This document shows, piece after piece, positions 1,259 through 61,123 of a stretch of DNA of 64,000 bases. Source of the stretch: a virus; IMG/VR virus record IMGVR_UViG_3300027746_000020, positions 7,704 through 71,703 of that record; one strand, given 5' to 3'. Each line of letters starts with the position of its first letter. Within the stretch, counting starts at the first letter, position 1. The notes under the pieces were generated by a model that saw only the letters and a program-made list of their open reading frames with translations, was not told the origin of the DNA and ran no database searches. Position numbers and translations under genes: made by a program.

Positions 1259-2320
1259 CTACAGGTTGAAACCGCTCCTCAGCTTGGACAGTTCTGCCGC
1301 ATCGAGCCATCGCTGATAAACCCGTTCATGGATTGCCACGCTGTGTCCCATGAGTCTTGCTGCGAGACTGCTCGGCACTCCTGCCATAAGCAGTCGAATG
1401 GCATACGCATGCCGCAGGTTATAGAGACCGAATGGGGATGGACCTCGCGTATGGATATAGTAATTAGCGCTCTTGGTGAACTGGTCTGACTTGTAGTTCG
1501 GTTTTTGCTCGTTGTGTAAATCGAACATTTTAACCCATGCCTGTGGAGCAGGCCACACAACTCGATAGCCTGTCTTTGTAGAATCGCCGATTTTAGCTTC
1601 ACTACTTGCTGTGAGCTGCACTTCCTGAACCTCATGAGGACGCAGCCCATAGGCAGCGCACATTCCGAACACCCATCTCCACTCTGGATATTTGACTGCT
1701 CCCCAAATTTCTAAAATCTGCTCGTCTGAGGGAATGTCCCTCGGTTGAAGGCAACGGAGAGAGTAACCTGATCGAGCGGCGCGTAATCGAGAGCAGTCGA
1801 TGCCACATGCGCTTGCAACTGTTGTTATCACCTGACCATAAGACTTACGCATCGCCGATTTCGCAGGCATACCCTCAATCACTCCCAACAGGAGTTCCCC
1901 GGATAGCTCCCCTGATGCTGGGACACGTTTTAGAGCTGGGCGCCAGCGCCGTACCCAATTCCCTTTGCCACCATCAGGTCGCTGCCCAAACCGCTCGGCA
2001 AAGATCCGAAGAGCTGTGGCGTGGAAGAACTCCAGGTCGGGTTTGGGCTCGTCCTCGGGGGGAGCCCAAACCTCCCAGGTGAACGTGCGCTGACGGAGCT
2101 GGAGGCCCAGGTTCATCGCCTGGCTCTCTGCGGCCCCCAGGCCCGCCAGGGTGGCCTCTACTCCTAGCGCTATCCGCTGCTGCCGGCGGCCTGCCCCGGA
2201 TCGTTCCGGCAGGGTTGCCACCAAATTCAGCCTCCTACCCCGGTGCTCGATGCGGCAGCGAAAACCTGCAGCTTTCAGACGATCATTGACCTCCCCGAGG
2301 GCGGTGGTGAAGCGATCCAT
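1259..2320 (-). CDS. int: tyrosine recombinase / phage integrase (cyanobacterial type)
   Basis: Catalytic motifs YGLRPHE, TKTG, YNLRHAYA, LMGHS, HERVY; start placed at MDRFTT (2320) rather than 2539. Confidence 0.92.
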   Translation of the reverse strand: MDRFTTALGEVNDRLKAAGFRCRIEHRGRRLNLVATLPERSGAGRRQQRIALGVEATLAGLGAAESQAMNLGLQLRQRTFTWEVWAPPEDEPKPDLEFFHATALRIFAERFGQRPDGGKGNWVRRWRPALKRVPASGELSGELLLGVIEGMPAKSAMRKSYGQVITTVASACGIDCSRLRAARSGYSLRCLQPRDIPSDEQILEIWGAVKYPEWRWVFGMCAAYGLRPHEVQEVQLTASSEAKIGDSTKTGYRVVWPAPQAWVKMFDLHNEQKPNYKSDQFTKSANYYIHTRGPSPFGLYNLRHAYAIRLLMAGVPSSLAARLMGHSVAIHERVYQRWLDAAELSKLRSGFNL

Positions 2321-2328
2321 CGGGAGAG

Positions 2329-2580
2329 CCTGGCTTGAACCTGGCTTAAAACAGTACACCTGTCTTGGCTTAAACAGGCCAAGCGAGCTACGAGACAGTC
2401 TGACTCCGAGGGTGCAGTTCGACTGCATCGCAGAGGGTTTGAGGTTGTGACTGAGTTTTGCACTAGAACATGCACACCCCTTCCCCCTCCCCCACCTAGG
2501 AGGGCCAGATCTGTGAAAGAGGTTGCTATGACTAAGCAAACGGTGGTGGCAGAGCCACCCTGGCTTAACTATGGCTTGTC
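2329..2580. other. putative attP with integrase arm-type repeats
   Basis: Direct 11-bp repeats CCTGGCTTGAA (2329), CCTGGCTTAAA (2340), CTTGGCTTAAA (2364), CCTGGCTTAAC (2559), TATGGCTTGTC (2570) in the intergenic gap 5' of int. Confidence 0.65.
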
Positions 2581-50381: not shown

Positions 50382-50448
50382 GGCGGAAGGGGCGGCCCGT
50401 GGGCCAGGGGTGGTGGTAGATGGACAGCCGCGAGTGCGGAGTAGAGTC

Positions 50449-54797: not shown

Positions 54798-54931
54798 GGT
54801 GAGTGAACGGGCAGGGCCCGGAGGGTGGTGGTAGATGGACAACTGGCAAAGCCAGGGCGCAAGGGCGCCAGGAAACCTCCGAACGGGTGAGGATCGGAGG
54901 CTTCGGGGTGCCGTCGCAGGGAGCGAAGCGC

Positions 54932-57556: not shown

Positions 57557-57765
57557 TCAGCGTCGGCGGTCTCTTGCGACCGGGAATAGGACGAGATTCC
57601 ACTAAACCTGCCATCGGCGATCATCTCGTCGACGGCAGCTTGTTGTTCTTCCATTGTGTGAAACCATTCCAGAACAGGCCGAGTGCCGTGTTCTGTGGTG
57701 AAGCGTTGTACCCACACGGAGTACCTACAGCCCCGGCCGTGGTTGTTGCGGAATTGGTAGGGCAT
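57553..57765 (-). CDS. hypothetical protein
   Basis: Start MPYQFR. Confidence 0.5.
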   Translation of the reverse strand: MPYQFRNNHGRGCRYSVWVQRFTTEHGTRPVLEWFHTMEEQQAAVDEMIADGRFSGISSYSRSQETADAE

Positions 57766-57769
57766 GGCC

Positions 57770-57991
57770 TCAGGAATAGAGCTGGAGTTCGGCATCTTTG
57801 CCGTAGCGGGCATAGAGATCCGCCGCGTATTCGGCGGAGATCGTGCGGGTCGTCAAGACCCTGCCGGATTGAGTGCGGGCTTCGGAGAACCACCAGCCAG
57901 GGCCGTGCATCTCACTGCGGCGGAAATGGACCCAGGCGGATTGGCTCGGAACGAATACGCTCCAGGCGTAGACACTAGCGAGTTGTGGCAT
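57770..57991 (-). CDS. hypothetical protein
   Basis: Start MPQLAS. Confidence 0.5.
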   Translation of the reverse strand: MPQLASVYAWSVFVPSQSAWVHFRRSEMHGPGWWFSEARTQSGRVLTTRTISAEYAADLYARYGKDAELQLYS

Positions 57992-58211
57992 GACTTTTTC
58001 CTGAACCGGTGAGTCTGAGGCGGCGAGAGAGTTCATCGGCATAAGTGAACGCTTGATCTGCGTAATACCCTTCGCGGACGGGGTTAAACCCACGGAGGTT
58101 TTCCGCCACTTGGCGGCAGTCGCGGATAATGAAGCGGAGCGATCCGAGATCACAAGTCGCCGCATGGCTCCGCCAACGGGCGAAGTCCTGGGGGGTGGCG
58201 TATTCGATCAT
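57975..58211 (-). CDS. hypothetical phage protein
   Basis: L.FII.DC..A......NP..EGYY.DQ..TY..EL.RR. Confidence 0.65.
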   Translation of the reverse strand: MIEYATPQDFARWRSHAATCDLGSLRFIIRDCRQVAENLRGFNPVREGYYADQAFTYADELSRRLRLTGSGKSHATTR

Positions 58212-58525
58212 GGGAGCCGTTCCATCACGAATGTGCCGTACTTGTCGGCTCCTATTGTGGAGAAACAGACGAGTCGGTAGGTAGCTCTTGGGTTGAATCG
58301 TGACAGAGCTTCTAACACTGCGGCTAAATGATTCTCGTGCATAGTCAGAGAATAGTCCTTGGATTCAGAAGCTCGAACCATTCCGCAGTGAGCGATGAAG
58401 GCGGTGTTCCCGTTACTATCAAGGGTTTTGACAGTTCGGACTACATCCAGGATCGGACGCGGCGTGGTAGTACGCCAAACGTCCATCGCGGCCCTGGCCG
58501 GATGAACAGTGATTGTCGCTGACAT
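58208..58525 (-). CDS. hypothetical protein, first ORF after early leader
   Basis: Start MSATIT ~25 nt after leader motif. Confidence 0.55.
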   Translation of the reverse strand: MSATITVHPARAAMDVWRTTTPRPILDVVRTVKTLDSNGNTAFIAHCGMVRASESKDYSLTMHENHLAAVLEALSRFNPRATYRLVCFSTIGADKYGTFVMERLP

Positions 58526-58568
58526 AGGTGTCAGACGGGCAGAGCCCGGTGGTAGTTGGACAGAAAAT

Positions 58569-59248
58569 GCCCCCGAAGGGGCAATACGACATAGGGGGAA
58601 TTGAACCACGGCTTGCGCCGTCCCGTAGGGCCCATACGAAAAGCCCACCCCGTAACAACGGAGTGGGCTAATCGCGCCTTGCCTAGCTTGCGCTAGGTAT
58701 GTCGAAAGATTTTTTCGTTGTTTGACCTCAGGCCAACGAATTGAACCATAATACCTACATCCGTCGCATAACCCTGACGGTAGGGAGCCCTTGCGGGAGT
58801 GGGGCCATGTAGGAGCGCCCCGTATCTAAGCAGCAGGAGGCCCAACCCCCCTGAGAAGTGTGCGTAGGGCCTGACAACCCCCGGTAGCACACCGCATACC
58901 TGCTTGCACTGTGAGCCCGGTCCCTCTGCACGAGGATCCTGCTTGCTAACGACGGGATCTGGCTCTCACCGGCCTCCCCATCTAACGCACACTACTGCCC
59001 CCTCCGGTAATCCGGTGCTACTAGAAACCTCACCCCCATCAGCCGACATGAAAGTCGGGAGGGATTATCGGCCCGTTCGCCGCGCTTGCTCAGGATGATA
59101 CCTGGCCGCCGGGATTTGAACGTGCGCCACTACAGCCCATCAAAGGTCCGTAGCTCACAGCTATAGCTCCAGGGTCGGCCTGGCCCGCCGCGCATGATCG
59201 GATGCGCTATTTATGGTCAGTTCACATAGGCGGTCGGTTCGGGAATGT
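58569..59248 (-). ncRNA. candidate large structured RNA / early leader ending in a tRNA-like domain
   Basis: No credible ORF; three GCAA tetraloops, one UUCG, T-loop-like GTTCAA motifs, several long-range complementary blocks; downstream of three promoters. Confidence 0.6.
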
Positions 59249-59254
59249 GAAAGT

Positions 59255-59283
59255 AGTATGGCATGGATTGGCGGATCCGTCAA
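59255..59283 (-). promoter_or_regulatory. early promoter P3
   Basis: TTGACG-17-CATACT with TGn extension. Confidence 0.75.
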
Positions 59284-59377
59284 GCGGTTCGGCCGGCGCC
59301 GGATCCGGGAACGGATCGCGACTGACGGGAGAGGAGATCCAGGGCGCGACGGCCGCCGGTTCTCTCCCGTTGGATCC

Positions 59378-59407
59378 AACCTACCACGGGATGGGCGGGA
59401 TCGTCAA
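59378..59407 (-). promoter_or_regulatory. early promoter P2
   Basis: TTGACG-18-TAGGTT with TGn extension. Confidence 0.75.
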
Positions 59408-59475
59408 CTGATTGGCCCGTCGGATCCGTGGGGATCGCGCAGCAAGAGGAAACCCGCCCGTGCGCGACGTGCGCG

Positions 59476-59504
59476 AGTCTACCACAGATCGGCGGATCCG
59501 TCAA
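59476..59504 (-). promoter_or_regulatory. early promoter P1
   Basis: TTGACG-17-TAGACT with TGn extension. Confidence 0.8.
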
Positions 59505-59605
59505 GTTTGCTGGAGTCTTATCGAGACTCAGCCTGCGACAGGCACACTGTCTATATGGCACATACAACGTCTACAAAAATGTAAATATATGTAATTTTTT
59601 ATGCT

Positions 59606-60199
59606 ATGCTTTCAGGGCATCTGATTCCTGAACCGGTGACCGAGCAGCTCTGTTTGAACCTGGGTGATGTCCCTGTAACCGTTGGGGGTCGAGTACCCAA
59701 GCCGATCCCGGAGGTAGTGTTGGAGCTATTCAGACTCTCATCTACCTCCCCGTCTGGTCTGGTGTGGGTTCATGATCGACCTCATAAGAGAACAAAAGCC
59801 GGTGACCCAGTTATTGGTAGCTTGATCAACAACAAATATAGATTGGTTCATGTTCCAGGGCATGGGCCTCACTACGCCCATCGAATCGTTTACTTCCTAC
59901 AGACAAAAGAGAACCCAGGTCACATGGTTGTGAGGCATTTAGCCGATGGAGACTTGGTACTAGGTTACCAAAGTGACAACTTACGAGATTCGCAAGGGAT
60001 ACTTAAAAAGCCTAAGGAAGGGTACAAGACTTGTAGAATGTATGAATACAAAGGTGATACCTTCAATCTTACTCGCTTGTGCAAACGGTTAGAGTTGGAC
60101 TACATGCGAATATACCAAATGACACGAAAAGGTAGAGACATTAGAGAAGTATTGGCAGAGCATGGCTTTGCCGATGTGAAGCTACTATTTACTCCCTGA
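59606..60199 (+). CDS. HNH homing endonuclease-like protein
   Basis: SPSGLVW...KAGD..G, Y.AHRIVY.L, VVRH...NL; AT-richer, opposite strand to neighbours. Confidence 0.75.
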   Translation: MLSGHLIPEPVTEQLCLNLGDVPVTVGGRVPKPIPEVVLELFRLSSTSPSGLVWVHDRPHKRTKAGDPVIGSLINNKYRLVHVPGHGPHYAHRIVYFLQTKENPGHMVVRHLADGDLVLGYQSDNLRDSQGILKKPKEGYKTCRMYEYKGDTFNLTRLCKRLELDYMRIYQMTRKGRDIREVLAEHGFADVKLLFTP

Positions 60200-61123
60200 C
60201 ATCTGCAGCCTCTCCATTTCAATCCTTAAATTATCCCTCCCTGACTTCAGCAACTGCCCGATCCTCGACTTGCTCAACTGCATATCGCTCGCTACCTCTT
60301 GCAGCCCCTTCTCTTTGACAACAATCTCCTCCAGCACATACCTCTCCTTCTCCGGCAGGCGCCGCATCGCGGCGGAGATCATCCGATGCTCTGCCGAAGG
60401 CAGGGCCAAGACGGGAGCTTCGCCGGGAGAGAGGGGGTCGAAGGGGGTGAAAGAGGAGGGAGGAGCGAAGCTGAAGCCGTCGTCCTCGGGGGAATCCACC
60501 GCCGGGATCAGCTCAATCAAGTTACTGCCTCCTTCGATGCCGGGGCGGTCGAGGCTTGCGGCCTCCGTCATGGCGTAGACCTGGCCGATCAGAAGCATGC
60601 GCTCAGGGCTGATCTTGGCGTAGGCGGCCAGCTCCTCCAGCGTGGGCTTCCGGCCTGTCCTTGACTGCATCTCCTGGCTGTACCGCTGAACCTTATTCAG
60701 CGTTTCGTAGTGGCCGATGGGAAGGCGGATGGTCCGCCCTTGGTTGTGTAGGGCTCTGGTGATGCCCTGGCGGATCCACCAATAGGCATAAGTGGAGATG
60801 CGGTAGCCGCGAGCCGGGTCGTAAAGCTCCAGGCCGCGAACCAGGCCGATGTTTCCTTCTTGTATAAGGTCGGAGAACTCCAACCCCTTGTGCTGAAACT
60901 TCTTCGCAATGGAGACCACCATTCGTAGGTTGGTGTTCACCATCGCTTTCATGCTGTGGCGCCCCCGCCGCTCTACCGTCTGCTTTGAGGCTGTCTGTTC
61001 ATGATACGAAAGTGGGTGCATCCATTCATGAATGCGGCGGCAGTGGAGAAGTTGAGCTTCCTCGCAAAGGATTGGGTACTTACCCACTTCCTGCATATAG
61101 CTGTGAAGTTCAGCATTAGCCAT
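60185..61123 (-). CDS. RNA polymerase sigma factor, sigma70 RpoD/SigA-like
   Basis: NLRMVVSIAKK, DLIQEGNIGL, YDPARGYRISTYAYWWIRQGITRA, RTIRLP, region 4 HTH. Confidence 0.95.
   Translation of the reverse strand: MANAELHSYMQEVGKYPILCEEAQLLHCRRIHEWMHPLSYHEQTASKQTVERRGRHSMKAMVNTNLRMVVSIAKKFQHKGLEFSDLIQEGNIGLVRGLELYDPARGYRISTYAYWWIRQGITRALHNQGRTIRLPIGHYETLNKVQRYSQEMQSRTGRKPTLEELAAYAKISPERMLLIGQVYAMTEAASLDRPGIEGGSNLIELIPAVDSPEDDGFSFAPPSSFTPFDPLSPGEAPVLALPSAEHRMISAAMRRLPEKERYVLEEIVVKEKGLQEVASDMQLSKSRIGQLLKSGRDNLRIEMERLQMSGSK

What the first reader, a model, noticed from the sequence alone, without database searches (positions are those of the whole stretch)
58569..59248. ~700-nt ORF-poor, highly self-complementary early-leader RNA: candidate large ncRNA or antiterminator
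Seen on the minus strand, directly downstream of three promoters. A long-range helix CTGTGAGCT-A-CGG (59160-59148) / CCG-GGCTCACAG (58920-58909) closes a ~250-nt domain. Further complementary blocks: AGTGTGCGT/ACGCACACT (9 bp), GTAGCAC/GTGCTAC, GGAGGCC/GGCCTCC, AGCAGG/CCTGCT, CCTACAT/ATGTAGG, TTCGTTG/CAACGAA. Local hairpins include CCGAC-TTTCAT-GTCGG and CCC-GCAA-GGG, and there are three GTTCAA T-loop-like motifs. Several blocks occur in the non-nested order A,B,C...A',B',C', implying pseudoknots or alternative folds. Established: phages encode large ornate RNAs (GOLLD, ROOL) and cis-acting antiterminator RNAs (HK022 put). Inference: a functional RNA made first in infection. I cannot assign it to a known family.
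Basis: partly seen in the sequence, partly recalled or inferred. Interest (0 to 1): 0.8.

Follow-up and report, generated by a model that had tools for sequence, protein, structure and literature searches.

The report
New large structured phage leader RNA
Just after its strong early promoters, this uncultured freshwater phage makes an abundant, intricately folded RNA of about 550-690 bases that matches no known RNA family, begins with a tiny start-stop reading frame and ends in a tRNA look-alike; what it does is still unknown.

Summary
The region is a real, conserved, expressed non-coding RNA. It is a new family, and its function is unresolved.

**No known family.** Rfam, ARAGORN and seven relatives gave no family match.

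**Homologues.** They occur on 34 other IMG/VR contigs, as about 20 distinct sequences in three lineages.

**Covariation.**
- Window versus its 88% relatives: 10 of 163 pairs changed on both sides, against 0-2 in slid controls.
- Sister lineage, core domain: 12 of 59 pairs, against 0-5.
- Cross-lineage arm: 11 of 21 pairs, against 1-6.

The long-range helix, CCTACAT/ATGTAGG, TTCGTTG/CAACGAA and the TTTCAT hairpin hold. AGTGTGCGT/ACGCACACT and GTAGCAC/GTGCTAC are refuted. Only one of the three GTTCAA motifs is a true T-loop. The folding z-score is only -1.8.

- A conserved start-stop or two-codon mini-ORF sits at the 5' end (21 of 28 leaders, against 1.2 in shuffles).
- A tRNA-like 3' module spans 58704-58587.
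- A lake metatranscriptome contig covers 58787-59359 at depth 124, against 4-5 for the neighbouring genes.
- Relatives carry other sequence between the same flanks.

**Best guess (about 0.4).** It is a discrete, stable, trans-acting early RNA. Cis-regulatory and RNA-immunity models remain open.

The scan's first stage had noted a similar leader on another genome (e1-6081165).

The parts
59476..59504 (-). Early promoter 1 (TTGACG, 17 nt, TAGACT, with TG before the -10)
   Evidence: Consensus scan. The promoter block is 70% identical in L002.
59378..59407 (-). Early promoter 2 (TTGACG, 18 nt, TG-n-TAGGTT); predicted start about 59371
   Evidence: Read by eye; it does not pass the scan's -10 rule. 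The RNA-library contig ends at 59359 and runs into adapter sequence there.
59325..59370 (-). Hairpin at the 5' end of promoter-2 transcripts
   Evidence: 9-nt perfect inverted repeat (I8). The same hairpin forms with different letters in L320.
59255..59283 (-). Early promoter 3 (TTGACG, 17 nt, CATACT); predicted start about 59248
   Evidence: Consensus scan.
59222..59227 (-). Start-stop mini-ORF AUG-UGA (AUG-UAA in L320; AUG-NNN-stop in most relatives)
   Evidence: Found in 21 of 28 unique leaders within 80 nt of the last promoter, against 1.2 +/- 1.1 in shuffles; all three stop codons are used.
59169..59207 (-). Two 5' hairpins (GCGCA/UGCGC and CCAGG/CCUGG)
   Evidence: The second becomes CCUGU/ACAGG in L320, and CCUGG/CCAGG, ACGGG/CCCGU and CCGGG/CCCGG in the sister lineage.
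58908..59161 (-). It contains helices at 59138-59133/58941-58933 and 59128-59118/58995-58984, and an inserted hairpin at 58982-58951.
   Evidence: GGGCUG/CAG-GAU-CCU here corresponds to GGGCGC/GCG-GAA-CCU in the other lineages.
59018..59109 (-). Three-way-junction arm: hairpin 59104-59091, then stacked helices 59074-59070/59029-59025 and 59065-59060/59037-59032, then the TTTCAT hairpin 59058-59043. Conserved single strands: GCGAAC, UGA, AGUAG.
   Evidence: A covariance model seeded only on the sister lineage places its best outside hits exactly here (E 0.22). In the cross-lineage alignment A13, 11 of 21 pairs changed on both sides. Each lineage folded alone gives the same topology.
58714..58893 (-). 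3' domain: hairpin 58893-58857, hairpin 58853-58834 (loop GUUGGG), helix 58821-58801 crossed by 58813-58807/58760-58754 (possible pseudoknot), hairpins 58797-58788 and 58780-58761, hairpin 58740-58714
   Evidence: Compensatory changes against L320/L319 in helices 16 and 19 (2 pairs each) and 22 (1 pair; the alignment is out of register there). L013 has a different stem with the same GUUGGG loop (by eye).
58586..58704 (-). tRNA-like module: 7-bp acceptor stem, 6-bp GCAA hairpin, 11-bp arm (58669-58642), and a T-arm with loop UUCAAUU whose stem is interrupted by a 23-nt insert
   Evidence: L320 lacks the insert and has GGGGG-UUCAAAU-CCCCC. The acceptor stem (1 pair) and the long arm (2 pairs) covary. 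It is not called a tRNA by ARAGORN or by Rfam (tRNA-Sec, 15 bits against a threshold of 47).
58561..58583 (-). Intrinsic-terminator-like hairpin GCCCC-UUCG-GGGGC followed by a U run
   Evidence: One compensatory pair in L320 (helix 30), where no U run follows.
58787..59359 (-). Stretch covered by a 598-nt contig of a lake metatranscriptome, 100% identical to the window
   Evidence: word depth 124.2, against 4.3 and 5 for the two contigs on 57747-58545. Contigs give presence only, not ends or levels.

Best explanation
**What it is (about 0.9).** It is a new family of large, highly structured non-coding RNA, about 470-580 nt in relatives and about 550-690 nt here. It is encoded in the untranslated leader between a tandem array of sigma-70-type early promoters and the first early genes of a clade of uncultured, probably temperate, tailed freshwater phages.

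**Parts of the window's copy.**
- A start-stop mini-ORF.
- Two small hairpins.
- A roughly 250-nt core closed by a long-range helix, with a conserved three-way-junction arm.
- A lineage-specific 3' domain with a likely pseudoknot.
- A tRNA-like module and a terminator.

**How it most likely works (about 0.4, inferred).**
- The RNA is released as a discrete, stable, abundant molecule. Its 3' end would be made by termination at 58642 or 58568, and/or by RNase P cutting in front of the tRNA-like module at 58704.
- Its 5' end would be protected by hairpins and by a ribosome parked on the start-stop.
- It then acts in trans, as a folded RNA or RNA-protein particle, on a host component early in infection.
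- Its position matches that of the first, variable anti-host gene behind T7's three early promoters (recalled). Relatives carry unrelated leaders between identical flanks. Both fit a swappable host-takeover or anti-defence module.
- The target is unknown.
For: **Shown**
- No Rfam family matches in the window, in L320 or in 7 relatives.
- Homologues are found by nhmmer in IMG/VR loci.
- Covariation: 10 of 163 pairs in A6, against 0-2 slid and 0 of 500 shuffles. 12 of 59 in A4, against 0-5. 11 of 21 in A13, against 1-6.
- A model seeded without the window finds it at the homologous place. The next model finds unseeded L318 (E 5e-6) and L013 (E 1.4e-3).
- Paired sites hold 50 G-U cells and 0 A-C cells (A6), and 44 against 5 (A4).
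- Frame-breaking indels rule out the small ORFs.
- The RNA-library contig has depth 124.2, against 4.3 and 5 on the downstream genes. Its end carries a read-1 adapter on the plus strand, as expected for a minus-strand RNA in a stranded library.
- Two terminator-like hairpins follow the RNA.
- The mini-ORF is enriched.
- Cassette exchange: L003 and L014 share 94-95% identical ends of the leader but have unrelated middles. A public contig joins 58555 to 59296 with 1226 other letters between.

**Inferred**
- Trans action, RNase P processing and ribosome parking.
Against: - No experiment or data set shows a trans target, a defined 3' end or a processed form.
- The RNA evidence is one run of assembled contigs. 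Depth is a per-contig figure, and DNA carry-over cannot be excluded.
- The relative with the closest sigma factor (L002, 75%) lacks this RNA, so the function is dispensable or replaceable.
- Early genes lie directly downstream, so polymerase must pass the terminators. That invites a cis-regulatory role.
- Folding energy is unremarkable.
- A6's structure was drawn from the window, and A13 was fitted to the model. The 'cells paired' figures therefore lean towards the structure.
- L319 and L320 are near-duplicates, so the 10 double changes in A6 reflect essentially one comparison.
Confidence: 0.45

Rival explanations
1. **Cis-acting regulatory leader.** The folded RNA controls whether polymerase stops at the terminators in front of the early genes. 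It would work by attenuation, by a protein- or ligand-dependent switch, or by a put-like modification of polymerase. The accumulated RNA would then be a by-product.
For: - The RNA sits between the promoters and the first early gene, and terminator-like hairpins follow it.
- In relatives, the terminator and about 60-120 nt before it are far better conserved than the RNA, across all leader types. That suggests a regulated site.
- Alternative pairings exist, such as AGCAGGA/UCCUGCU (I2).
Against: - A 250-nt core with conserved junction letters is far more elaborate than known attenuators or put RNAs (recalled: put is about 70 nt).
- Unrelated leaders are exchanged in front of the same terminator and the same first gene.
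- In L320 a 191-aa ORF separates the RNA from the common terminator.
- The alternative pairings are invariant, so unsupported.
Confidence: 0.2
2. **RNA-based immunity or early-operon control.** This would work like the P4 CI RNA or the P1/P7 C4 RNA. A piece processed from the leader by RNase P pairs with the leader or with early mRNAs and shuts off early expression. The exchanged cassettes would then be immunity types.
For: - An integrase-like gene lies at window 1259-2539 (PHROG 1, E 5e-12), so the phage may be temperate.
- P4 CI and P1/P7 C4 RNAs are RNase P substrates (PMC5499578, passage read).
- A tRNA-like module could direct RNase P.
- Exchange of a cassette between conserved flanks is typical of immunity regions (recalled).
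- The RNA dominates over the neighbouring genes in the one RNA data set.
Against: - No conserved complementarity to the leader or to early-gene leaders was found. The duplex energy against the early-gene leaders is within the range of shuffles (-84.3 against -78.2 +/- 4.9).
- The sister lineages lack the tRNA-like module.
- GGATCC-type palindromes overlap the promoters, and relatives have a helix-turn-helix gene just upstream. These point to ordinary protein repression.
- The Pfam integrase match is below threshold.
Confidence: 0.12
3. **Large oligomeric RNA particle of the GOLLD/ROOL kind.** It would be an RNA-only or ribosome-associated assembly carrying a covalently linked tRNA-like element.
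For: - It shares their size, ornate fold, phage origin and unknown partners.
- GOLLD and ROOL are phage or prophage RNAs often found near tRNAs. tRNAs sometimes lie in the GOLLD linker, ribosomes bind GOLLD in pull-downs, and GOLLD has one conserved and one variable half (PMC12286853, passages read).
- Here there is a tRNA mimic, a ribosome-loading start-stop, and a conserved core with a variable 3' domain.
Against: - There is no sequence or model match to GOLLD or ROOL.
- No conserved self-complementary loops were found by eye.
- Nothing here tests oligomerisation.
Confidence: 0.1
4. **Not a functional RNA.** It would be a DNA-level element (origin, packaging or protein-binding array), or a set of small protein genes.
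For: - The promoter region is full of repeats.
- The opposite strand folds slightly better than shuffles (z = -2.61).
Against: - Paired sites hold G-U pairs but almost no A-C pairs.
- Compensatory changes preserve pairing.
- Frame-breaking indels rule out the small ORFs.
- The sequence is present in an RNA library.
Confidence: 0.03

Closest known systems
GOLLD and ROOL RNAs (large ornate phage and prophage RNAs of unknown function)
   Same: - Several hundred nucleotides long, with many covarying helices.
- Phage-encoded, with no known protein partner.
- Associated with tRNA or tRNA-like sequence.
- One conserved and one variable half (PMC12286853, passages).
   Different: - No match to either Rfam model.
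- A different secondary structure.
- Sits in the early leader behind tandem promoters, not in a tRNA island.
- Carries a start-stop mini-ORF.
- Oligomerisation is untested.
P4 CI RNA and P1/P7 C4 RNA (leader-derived regulatory RNAs cut out by RNase P)
   Same: They are made from the untranslated leader of a phage early operon, and RNase P-type processing is plausible (PMC5499578, passage).
   Different: - Those RNAs are under 100 nt (recalled) and lack a T loop equivalent (the same passage). They act by pairing with sites in the same transcript (recalled).
- Here the RNA is 6-8 times larger, no target complementarity was found, and no Rfam match appeared.
tRNA-like 3'-end modules such as MALAT1/mascRNA (recalled)
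   Same: A tRNA-shaped element lies directly downstream of a long structured non-coding RNA. It could let RNase P create the long RNA's 3' end.
   Different: That system is eukaryotic. Here cleavage is only inferred, and the module fails tRNA detectors. Its D-arm position holds a GCAA hairpin and its anticodon position holds an 11-bp arm.
T7 early region: three host promoters A1-A3 followed by the anti-restriction gene 0.3 (recalled)
   Same: Three tandem strong host-type promoters fire into a first, variable product made before anything else.
   Different: The first product here is an RNA, not a protein. The phage carries its own sigma factor gene upstream and an integrase-like gene.
Start-stop and two-codon minigenes (bacterial start-stops, lambda bar minigenes)
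   Same: An AUG is followed at once, or after one codon, by a stop. It is conserved while the stop codon and the middle codon vary.
   Different: Bacterial start-stops are reported from ribosome profiling (10.1101/520783; search listing and start of abstract only). The bar minigenes are recalled. No translation data exist here.

Membership tests
Any Rfam 15 family (including GOLLD, ROOL, OLE, raiA, 6S, RNase P RNA, tmRNA, riboswitches, C4) | Score at or above the family's gathering threshold in cmscan | tested here: not met
   - 0 matches in the whole window at gathering thresholds.
- At E up to 10 on 58000-59800, only a 14-nt hairpin fragment of PhotoRC-I (12.9 bits against 45).
- 0 matches at E up to 1 in 7 relatives.
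- That these named families are in Rfam is recalled.
tRNA | Cloverleaf recognised by ARAGORN or the Rfam tRNA models | tested here: not met
   ARAGORN found 0 genes in the window and in 6 loci. The best Rfam match was tRNA-Sec at 15 bits against 47, E 6.7, in L320.
tRNA | 7-bp acceptor stem stacked on a 5-bp T-stem with a 7-nt UUCRANY-type loop | tested here: met
   - Acceptor 58704-58698/58593-58587, with one compensatory pair.
- T-arm GGGGG-UUCAAAU-CCCCC in L320; in the window the stem is interrupted by 23 nt.
- The T-loop consensus is recalled.
tRNA | D-arm with GG loop and a 5-bp anticodon stem with a 7-nt loop | tested here: not met
   The D position holds a 6-bp stem with a GCAA loop. 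The anticodon position holds an 11-bp stem with a 4-6-nt loop.
tmRNA | tRNA-like domain formed by the 5' and 3' ends, plus a tag reading frame | tested here: not met
   ARAGORN found none and no Rfam tmRNA model matched. The acceptor stem encloses only 118 nt.
HK022 put-type antiterminator RNA | Two short stem-loops just downstream of the promoter that make polymerase resistant to terminators in cis | not testable with these tools
   I know of no model to search with, and the definition is recalled. Indirectly against it: the RNA contig has depth 124, against 4-5 downstream.
P4 CI / P1 C4-type leader RNA | Short processed RNA with conserved complementarity to sites in the same leader or target mRNA | tested here: inconclusive
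   The duplex search against four early-gene leaders was not better than shuffles. The inverted repeats listed are either refuted or invariant in L320.
New family defined here (type-A early-leader RNA) | Core arm (hairpin plus three stacked helices, with GCGAAC, UGA and AGUAG) enclosed by GGGCNN/NNG-GAN-CCU and a long closing helix, behind a promoter-proximal mini-ORF | tested here: met
   The window is hit at 59018-59109 by a model seeded without it. Helices are kept with compensation. The mini-ORF lies at 59227-59222.

The most novel reading that the evidence does not exclude
The first product of infection would be a self-contained RNA machine. It would be an ornate RNA, possibly oligomeric like GOLLD or ROOL, that docks a ribosome on its start-stop codon pair and carries its own tRNA mimic. 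Related phages would exchange it as a cassette to disable or decoy a host translation, tRNA-processing or defence component.
Probability: 0.15. Interest if true: 0.9.

Novelty: new variant of a known kind. Interest (0 to 1): 0.72.

Why it matters
Large, intricately folded bacterial and phage RNAs of unknown function are rare. The known ones (GOLLD, ROOL, OLE) proved structurally surprising when solved.

This family adds one with an unusually informative setting:
- a fixed place at the very start of the early transcription unit, behind three strong promoters;
- a conserved ribosome-loading start-stop;
- in one lineage, a linked tRNA mimic;
- natural exchange against unrelated leaders between identical flanks;
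- evidence of high abundance in a lake.

That makes several questions directly testable. What do phage 'ornate' RNAs do? Do they engage ribosomes or tRNA enzymes? Is the first thing some phages deploy an RNA rather than a protein?

Tried and rejected
- **Folding energy.** z = -1.80 on the RNA strand and -2.61 on the other strand, so it does not discriminate.
- **RNAalifold on sequence-only MAFFT alignments of all lineages** (A2; A8). These recovered few helices, because loops of different length put the stems out of register. I used lineage-wise alignments and covariance models instead.
- **Model R1 (211 positions, sister lineage only).** It did not find the window, L281 or the third lineage, even with filters off.
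- **Pattern AGCGCANCCNANCANGCGCGGC in metagenome contigs and genome contigs**. The listed loci (80 of 115 and 70) held no true homologue by nhmmer.
- **blastn against GenBank phages.** No match. tblastn with the sigma factor found only hits below 60% identity, so there is no named relative.
- **RNA-RNA duplex search against early-gene leaders.** Within the range of shuffles.
- **Metatranscriptome gaps.** No contig of the metatranscriptome lay on 58546-58786 or on 59386-60400. A hole proves nothing, so I draw no 3' end and no silence of the sigma gene from it.
- **Hidden rows.** 164 rows of differences were not shown, so the roughly 94% relative seen in run X3 could not be used for covariation.
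- **Pfam on the ORFs inside other leaders and on L320's inserted 191-aa ORF.** Nothing.
- **Resemblances held only as leads.** The idea that GAA and AGUAG at the three-way junction form a loop-E (bulged-G) motif, and that GGCUCUGCC near the common terminator is boxA-like, are recalled resemblances only. Neither was tested.
- **Literature searches**. None surfaced a description of this RNA. Supplements were not consulted, so candidate-motif lists in the supplements of PMC5737381 could hold it.
Full report
**Setting**

The window is the last 64 kb of a 71.7-kb IMG/VR virus record rated complete. It encodes a terminase, a portal and a major capsid protein. It also has an integrase-like protein at 1259-2539 (PHROG 1, E 5e-12; the Pfam match is below threshold).

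Nearly all genes are on the minus strand. Read in that direction, the layout is:
- a sigma-70-family gene at 61123-60185 (Pfam regions 2, 3 and 4);
- an HNH-endonuclease-like ORF on the other strand at 59606-60199;
- an AT-rich tract;
- three TTGACG promoters;
- the ORF-poor stretch of the finding;
- two terminator-like hairpins (58669-58642 and 58583-58568);
- the first small early gene, with its ATG at 58527.

The sigma factor's nearest cellular relatives that carry names are cyanobacterial, at about 40-50% identity. No named phage is close. A cyanobacterial host is plausible but not shown.

**Is it a known RNA?**

No. All 4227 Rfam models gave nothing at gathering thresholds over the window. 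At E up to 10 the region gave only a 14-nt hairpin fragment. ARAGORN found no tRNA or tmRNA. Seven relatives gave nothing at E up to 1. L320 gave only a sub-threshold tRNA-Sec alignment over its tRNA-like end.

**Homologues**

A sigma-factor search brought in 80 viral loci. The RNA was detectable by nhmmer in L003 (and its identical copies), L018 and L013. It was not detectable in L002, the relative with the closest sigma factor (75%). L002 keeps the promoters and the 3' flank but has about 1 kb of other sequence between them.

The relatives end their leaders with a highly conserved terminator. A scan for it returned 45 loci. Of the 40 new ones, 25 hold the full RNA and 15 hold only the 3' end.

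A pattern from the window's core found L319 and L320. They are 88% identical to the window over 548 nt, that is 59170-58631. The same scan found L318 and L321, which are relatives of L281.

In all, the RNA is on 34 other contigs, in about 20 distinct sequences. They fall into three lineages:
- the window's lineage (window, L320/L319, L281, L318);
- a compact sister lineage (L003, L018, L313, L307 and the L278 group);
- a third lineage (L013, L288, L297, L305, L306).

**Structure and covariation**

I drew a structure for the window from these comparisons and counted it on the window/L320/L319 alignment.
- Of 163 pairs, 96.6% of cells are paired.
- 10 pairs changed on both sides, against 0-2 when partners are slid; 0 of 500 shuffles reached this.
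- L319 and L320 are near-duplicates, so this is essentially one comparison. The structure came from the window, which inflates the percentage paired but not the double changes.

In the sister lineage, the RNAalifold structure of the core has 59 pairs. Of these, 95.1% of cells are paired and 12 pairs changed on both sides, against 0-5 slid.

For a cross-lineage test I built a model of the 92-nt arm from the sister lineage alone.
- Its three best outside hits were L320, the window (at 59018-59109) and L281. Each lay at the homologous place, at E 0.2-0.5.
- A second model that included those three then found unseeded L318 (E 5e-6) and L013 (E 1.4e-3). It found L297 and L288 more weakly, again at the homologous places.
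- On the resulting 10-sequence alignment, 11 of 21 pairs changed on both sides, against 1-6 slid; 0 of 500 shuffles reached this. That alignment is fitted to the model.

Each lineage's arm, folded alone, gives the same hairpin-plus-three-helix topology in most sequences. The windows flanking the core give a long closing helix of different sequence in each lineage.

Paired sites hold 50 G-U cells and 0 A-C cells in A6, and 44 against 5 in A4. The folded strand is therefore the transcribed one.

Held up:
- the closing helix;
- CCTACAT/ATGTAGG;
- TTCGTTG/CAACGAA;
- the TTTCAT hairpin.

Refuted by the L320 substitutions, which are compensated elsewhere:
- AGTGTGCGT/ACGCACACT;
- GTAGCAC/GTGCTAC.

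Invariant, and in competition with covarying helices:
- GGAGGCC/GGCCTCC;
- AGCAGG/CCTGCT.

The covarying 58813-58807/58760-58754 helix crosses a possible 58821-58801 hairpin. One pseudoknot is therefore plausible.

**Features not in the finding**

1. *Mini-ORF.* The RNA begins with AUG-UGA at 59227-59222. L320 has AUG-UAA, and most relatives have AUG-NNN-stop, using all three stop codons. The motif lies within 80 nt of the last promoter in 21 of 28 unique leaders, against 1.2 +/- 1.1 (maximum 5) in shuffles. It also occurs in leaders of other types. At least three of the seven misses are promoter mis-calls, judged by eye.
2. *tRNA-like module.* The last 118 nt (58704-58587) fold into a four-way junction with a 7-bp acceptor stem and a T-arm. 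L320 has the uninterrupted GGGGG-UUCAAAU-CCCCC. The acceptor stem and the long arm covary. It is not a tRNA by any detector. The sister lineages lack it.
3. *Expression.* A lake metatranscriptome holds three contigs identical to the window. One, 598 nt long, covers 58787-59359 at word depth 124.2. Two cover 57747-58545 at depths 4.3 and 5. The deep contig ends at 59359 in read-1 adapter sequence read along the plus strand. This suggests many fragment ends about 11 nt below promoter 2's predicted start, and a minus-strand RNA. This is one run of contigs, so it is a hint at level and start and no evidence for a 3' end.
4. *Exchange.* L003 and L014 share leader ends at 94-95% identity and the same first gene, but have unrelated middles. 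At least four other leader types exist between the same flanks. A public contig joins 58555 to 59296 with 1226 other letters between.

**Mechanism**

Shown: a conserved, folded, transcribed RNA followed by terminator-like hairpins.

Inferred: it accumulates as a discrete molecule and acts in trans. I favour this at about 0.4, for four reasons.
- The core is far more elaborate than known cis leaders.
- The RNA is exchanged independently of the terminator and the downstream gene.
- In L320 a 191-aa ORF separates it from the common terminator.
- The RNA contig is much deeper than its neighbours.

The position behind three tandem promoters, together with the variability, recalls T7's first anti-host gene (recalled).

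The rivals remain open:
- a cis-regulatory leader;
- a P4 CI or P1 C4-like RNA controller, given the integrase-like gene and a possible RNase P site (PMC5499578, passage);
- a GOLLD/ROOL-like particle (PMC12286853, passages).

The scan's first stage had already noted a similar leader with a tRNA-like element on another genome (e1-6081165).

Noticed in passing
L010:7893-8560, L014:8090-8795, L006/L015, L002:7262-8290, L287: Relatives carry at least four other, mutually unrelated leaders of about 420-1400 nt between the same promoter array and the same terminator. The L010 type (668 nt) and the L287 type (561 nt) are also ORF-poor, so further unknown structured RNAs may sit there.
   Followed up: partly
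L003:8330-8394 and the same place in 45 viral loci; weaker in window 58520-58560: The terminator CCCCCUGG-CGCACUGCG-UCCGGGGG with its U run, the preceding GGCAAUGGGCAUUCGGCUCUGCC...ACGCACAAAC, and a following 7-bp hairpin are conserved almost letter for letter across leader types. That is much more than a plain terminator needs. It may be a regulated (nut-like) site. The boxA resemblance of GGCUCUGCC is recalled, not tested.
   Followed up: partly
window 59268-59504: GGATCC or CGGATCCG palindromes overlap or abut the -35 boxes and recur between the promoters (I5). Relatives have a 125-aa ORF with a weak helix-turn-helix match just upstream of the array (L003:7087-7464). This may be an operator-repressor pair.
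   Followed up: no
window 59606-60199 (+): An HNH-endonuclease-like ORF (phrog_99, E 1.1e-8) lies on the opposite strand between the sigma gene and the promoters. Relatives have same-strand genes at that place.
   Followed up: no
window 1259-2539 (-): A 426-aa ORF matches PHROG 1 integrase (E 5e-12). It is below the Pfam Phage_integrase threshold (17 bits against 27.1). The phage may be temperate.
   Followed up: partly
window 58548-58562, 54827-54841, 50412-50426 (-), compared with 59381-59390: The 15-mer repeated in front of early genes gives 7 matches at up to 3 mismatches, against 1.5 expected. It is the reverse complement of the extended -10 region of promoter 2 (I6). It may therefore act as an antisense promoter-like element, or pair with promoter-1 transcripts.
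   Followed up: no
L320:4196-4771 (-): In L320 and L319, a 191-aa ORF with no Pfam match is inserted between the tRNA-like module and the common terminator. It includes a GCCGCT repeat whose length differs between the two contigs.
   Followed up: no
window 59572-59606 (-): An AT-rich tract (ATACATATAT..ACATTTTT) directly upstream of the promoter array is conserved in all relatives examined. It may be an UP element or a protein-binding site.
   Followed up: no
window 59325-59370 and the segments between the promoters: Each inter-promoter segment forms a hairpin. The one after promoter 2 is kept in L320 with different letters. Transcripts from the upstream promoters therefore start with stable 5' hairpins.
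   Followed up: partly
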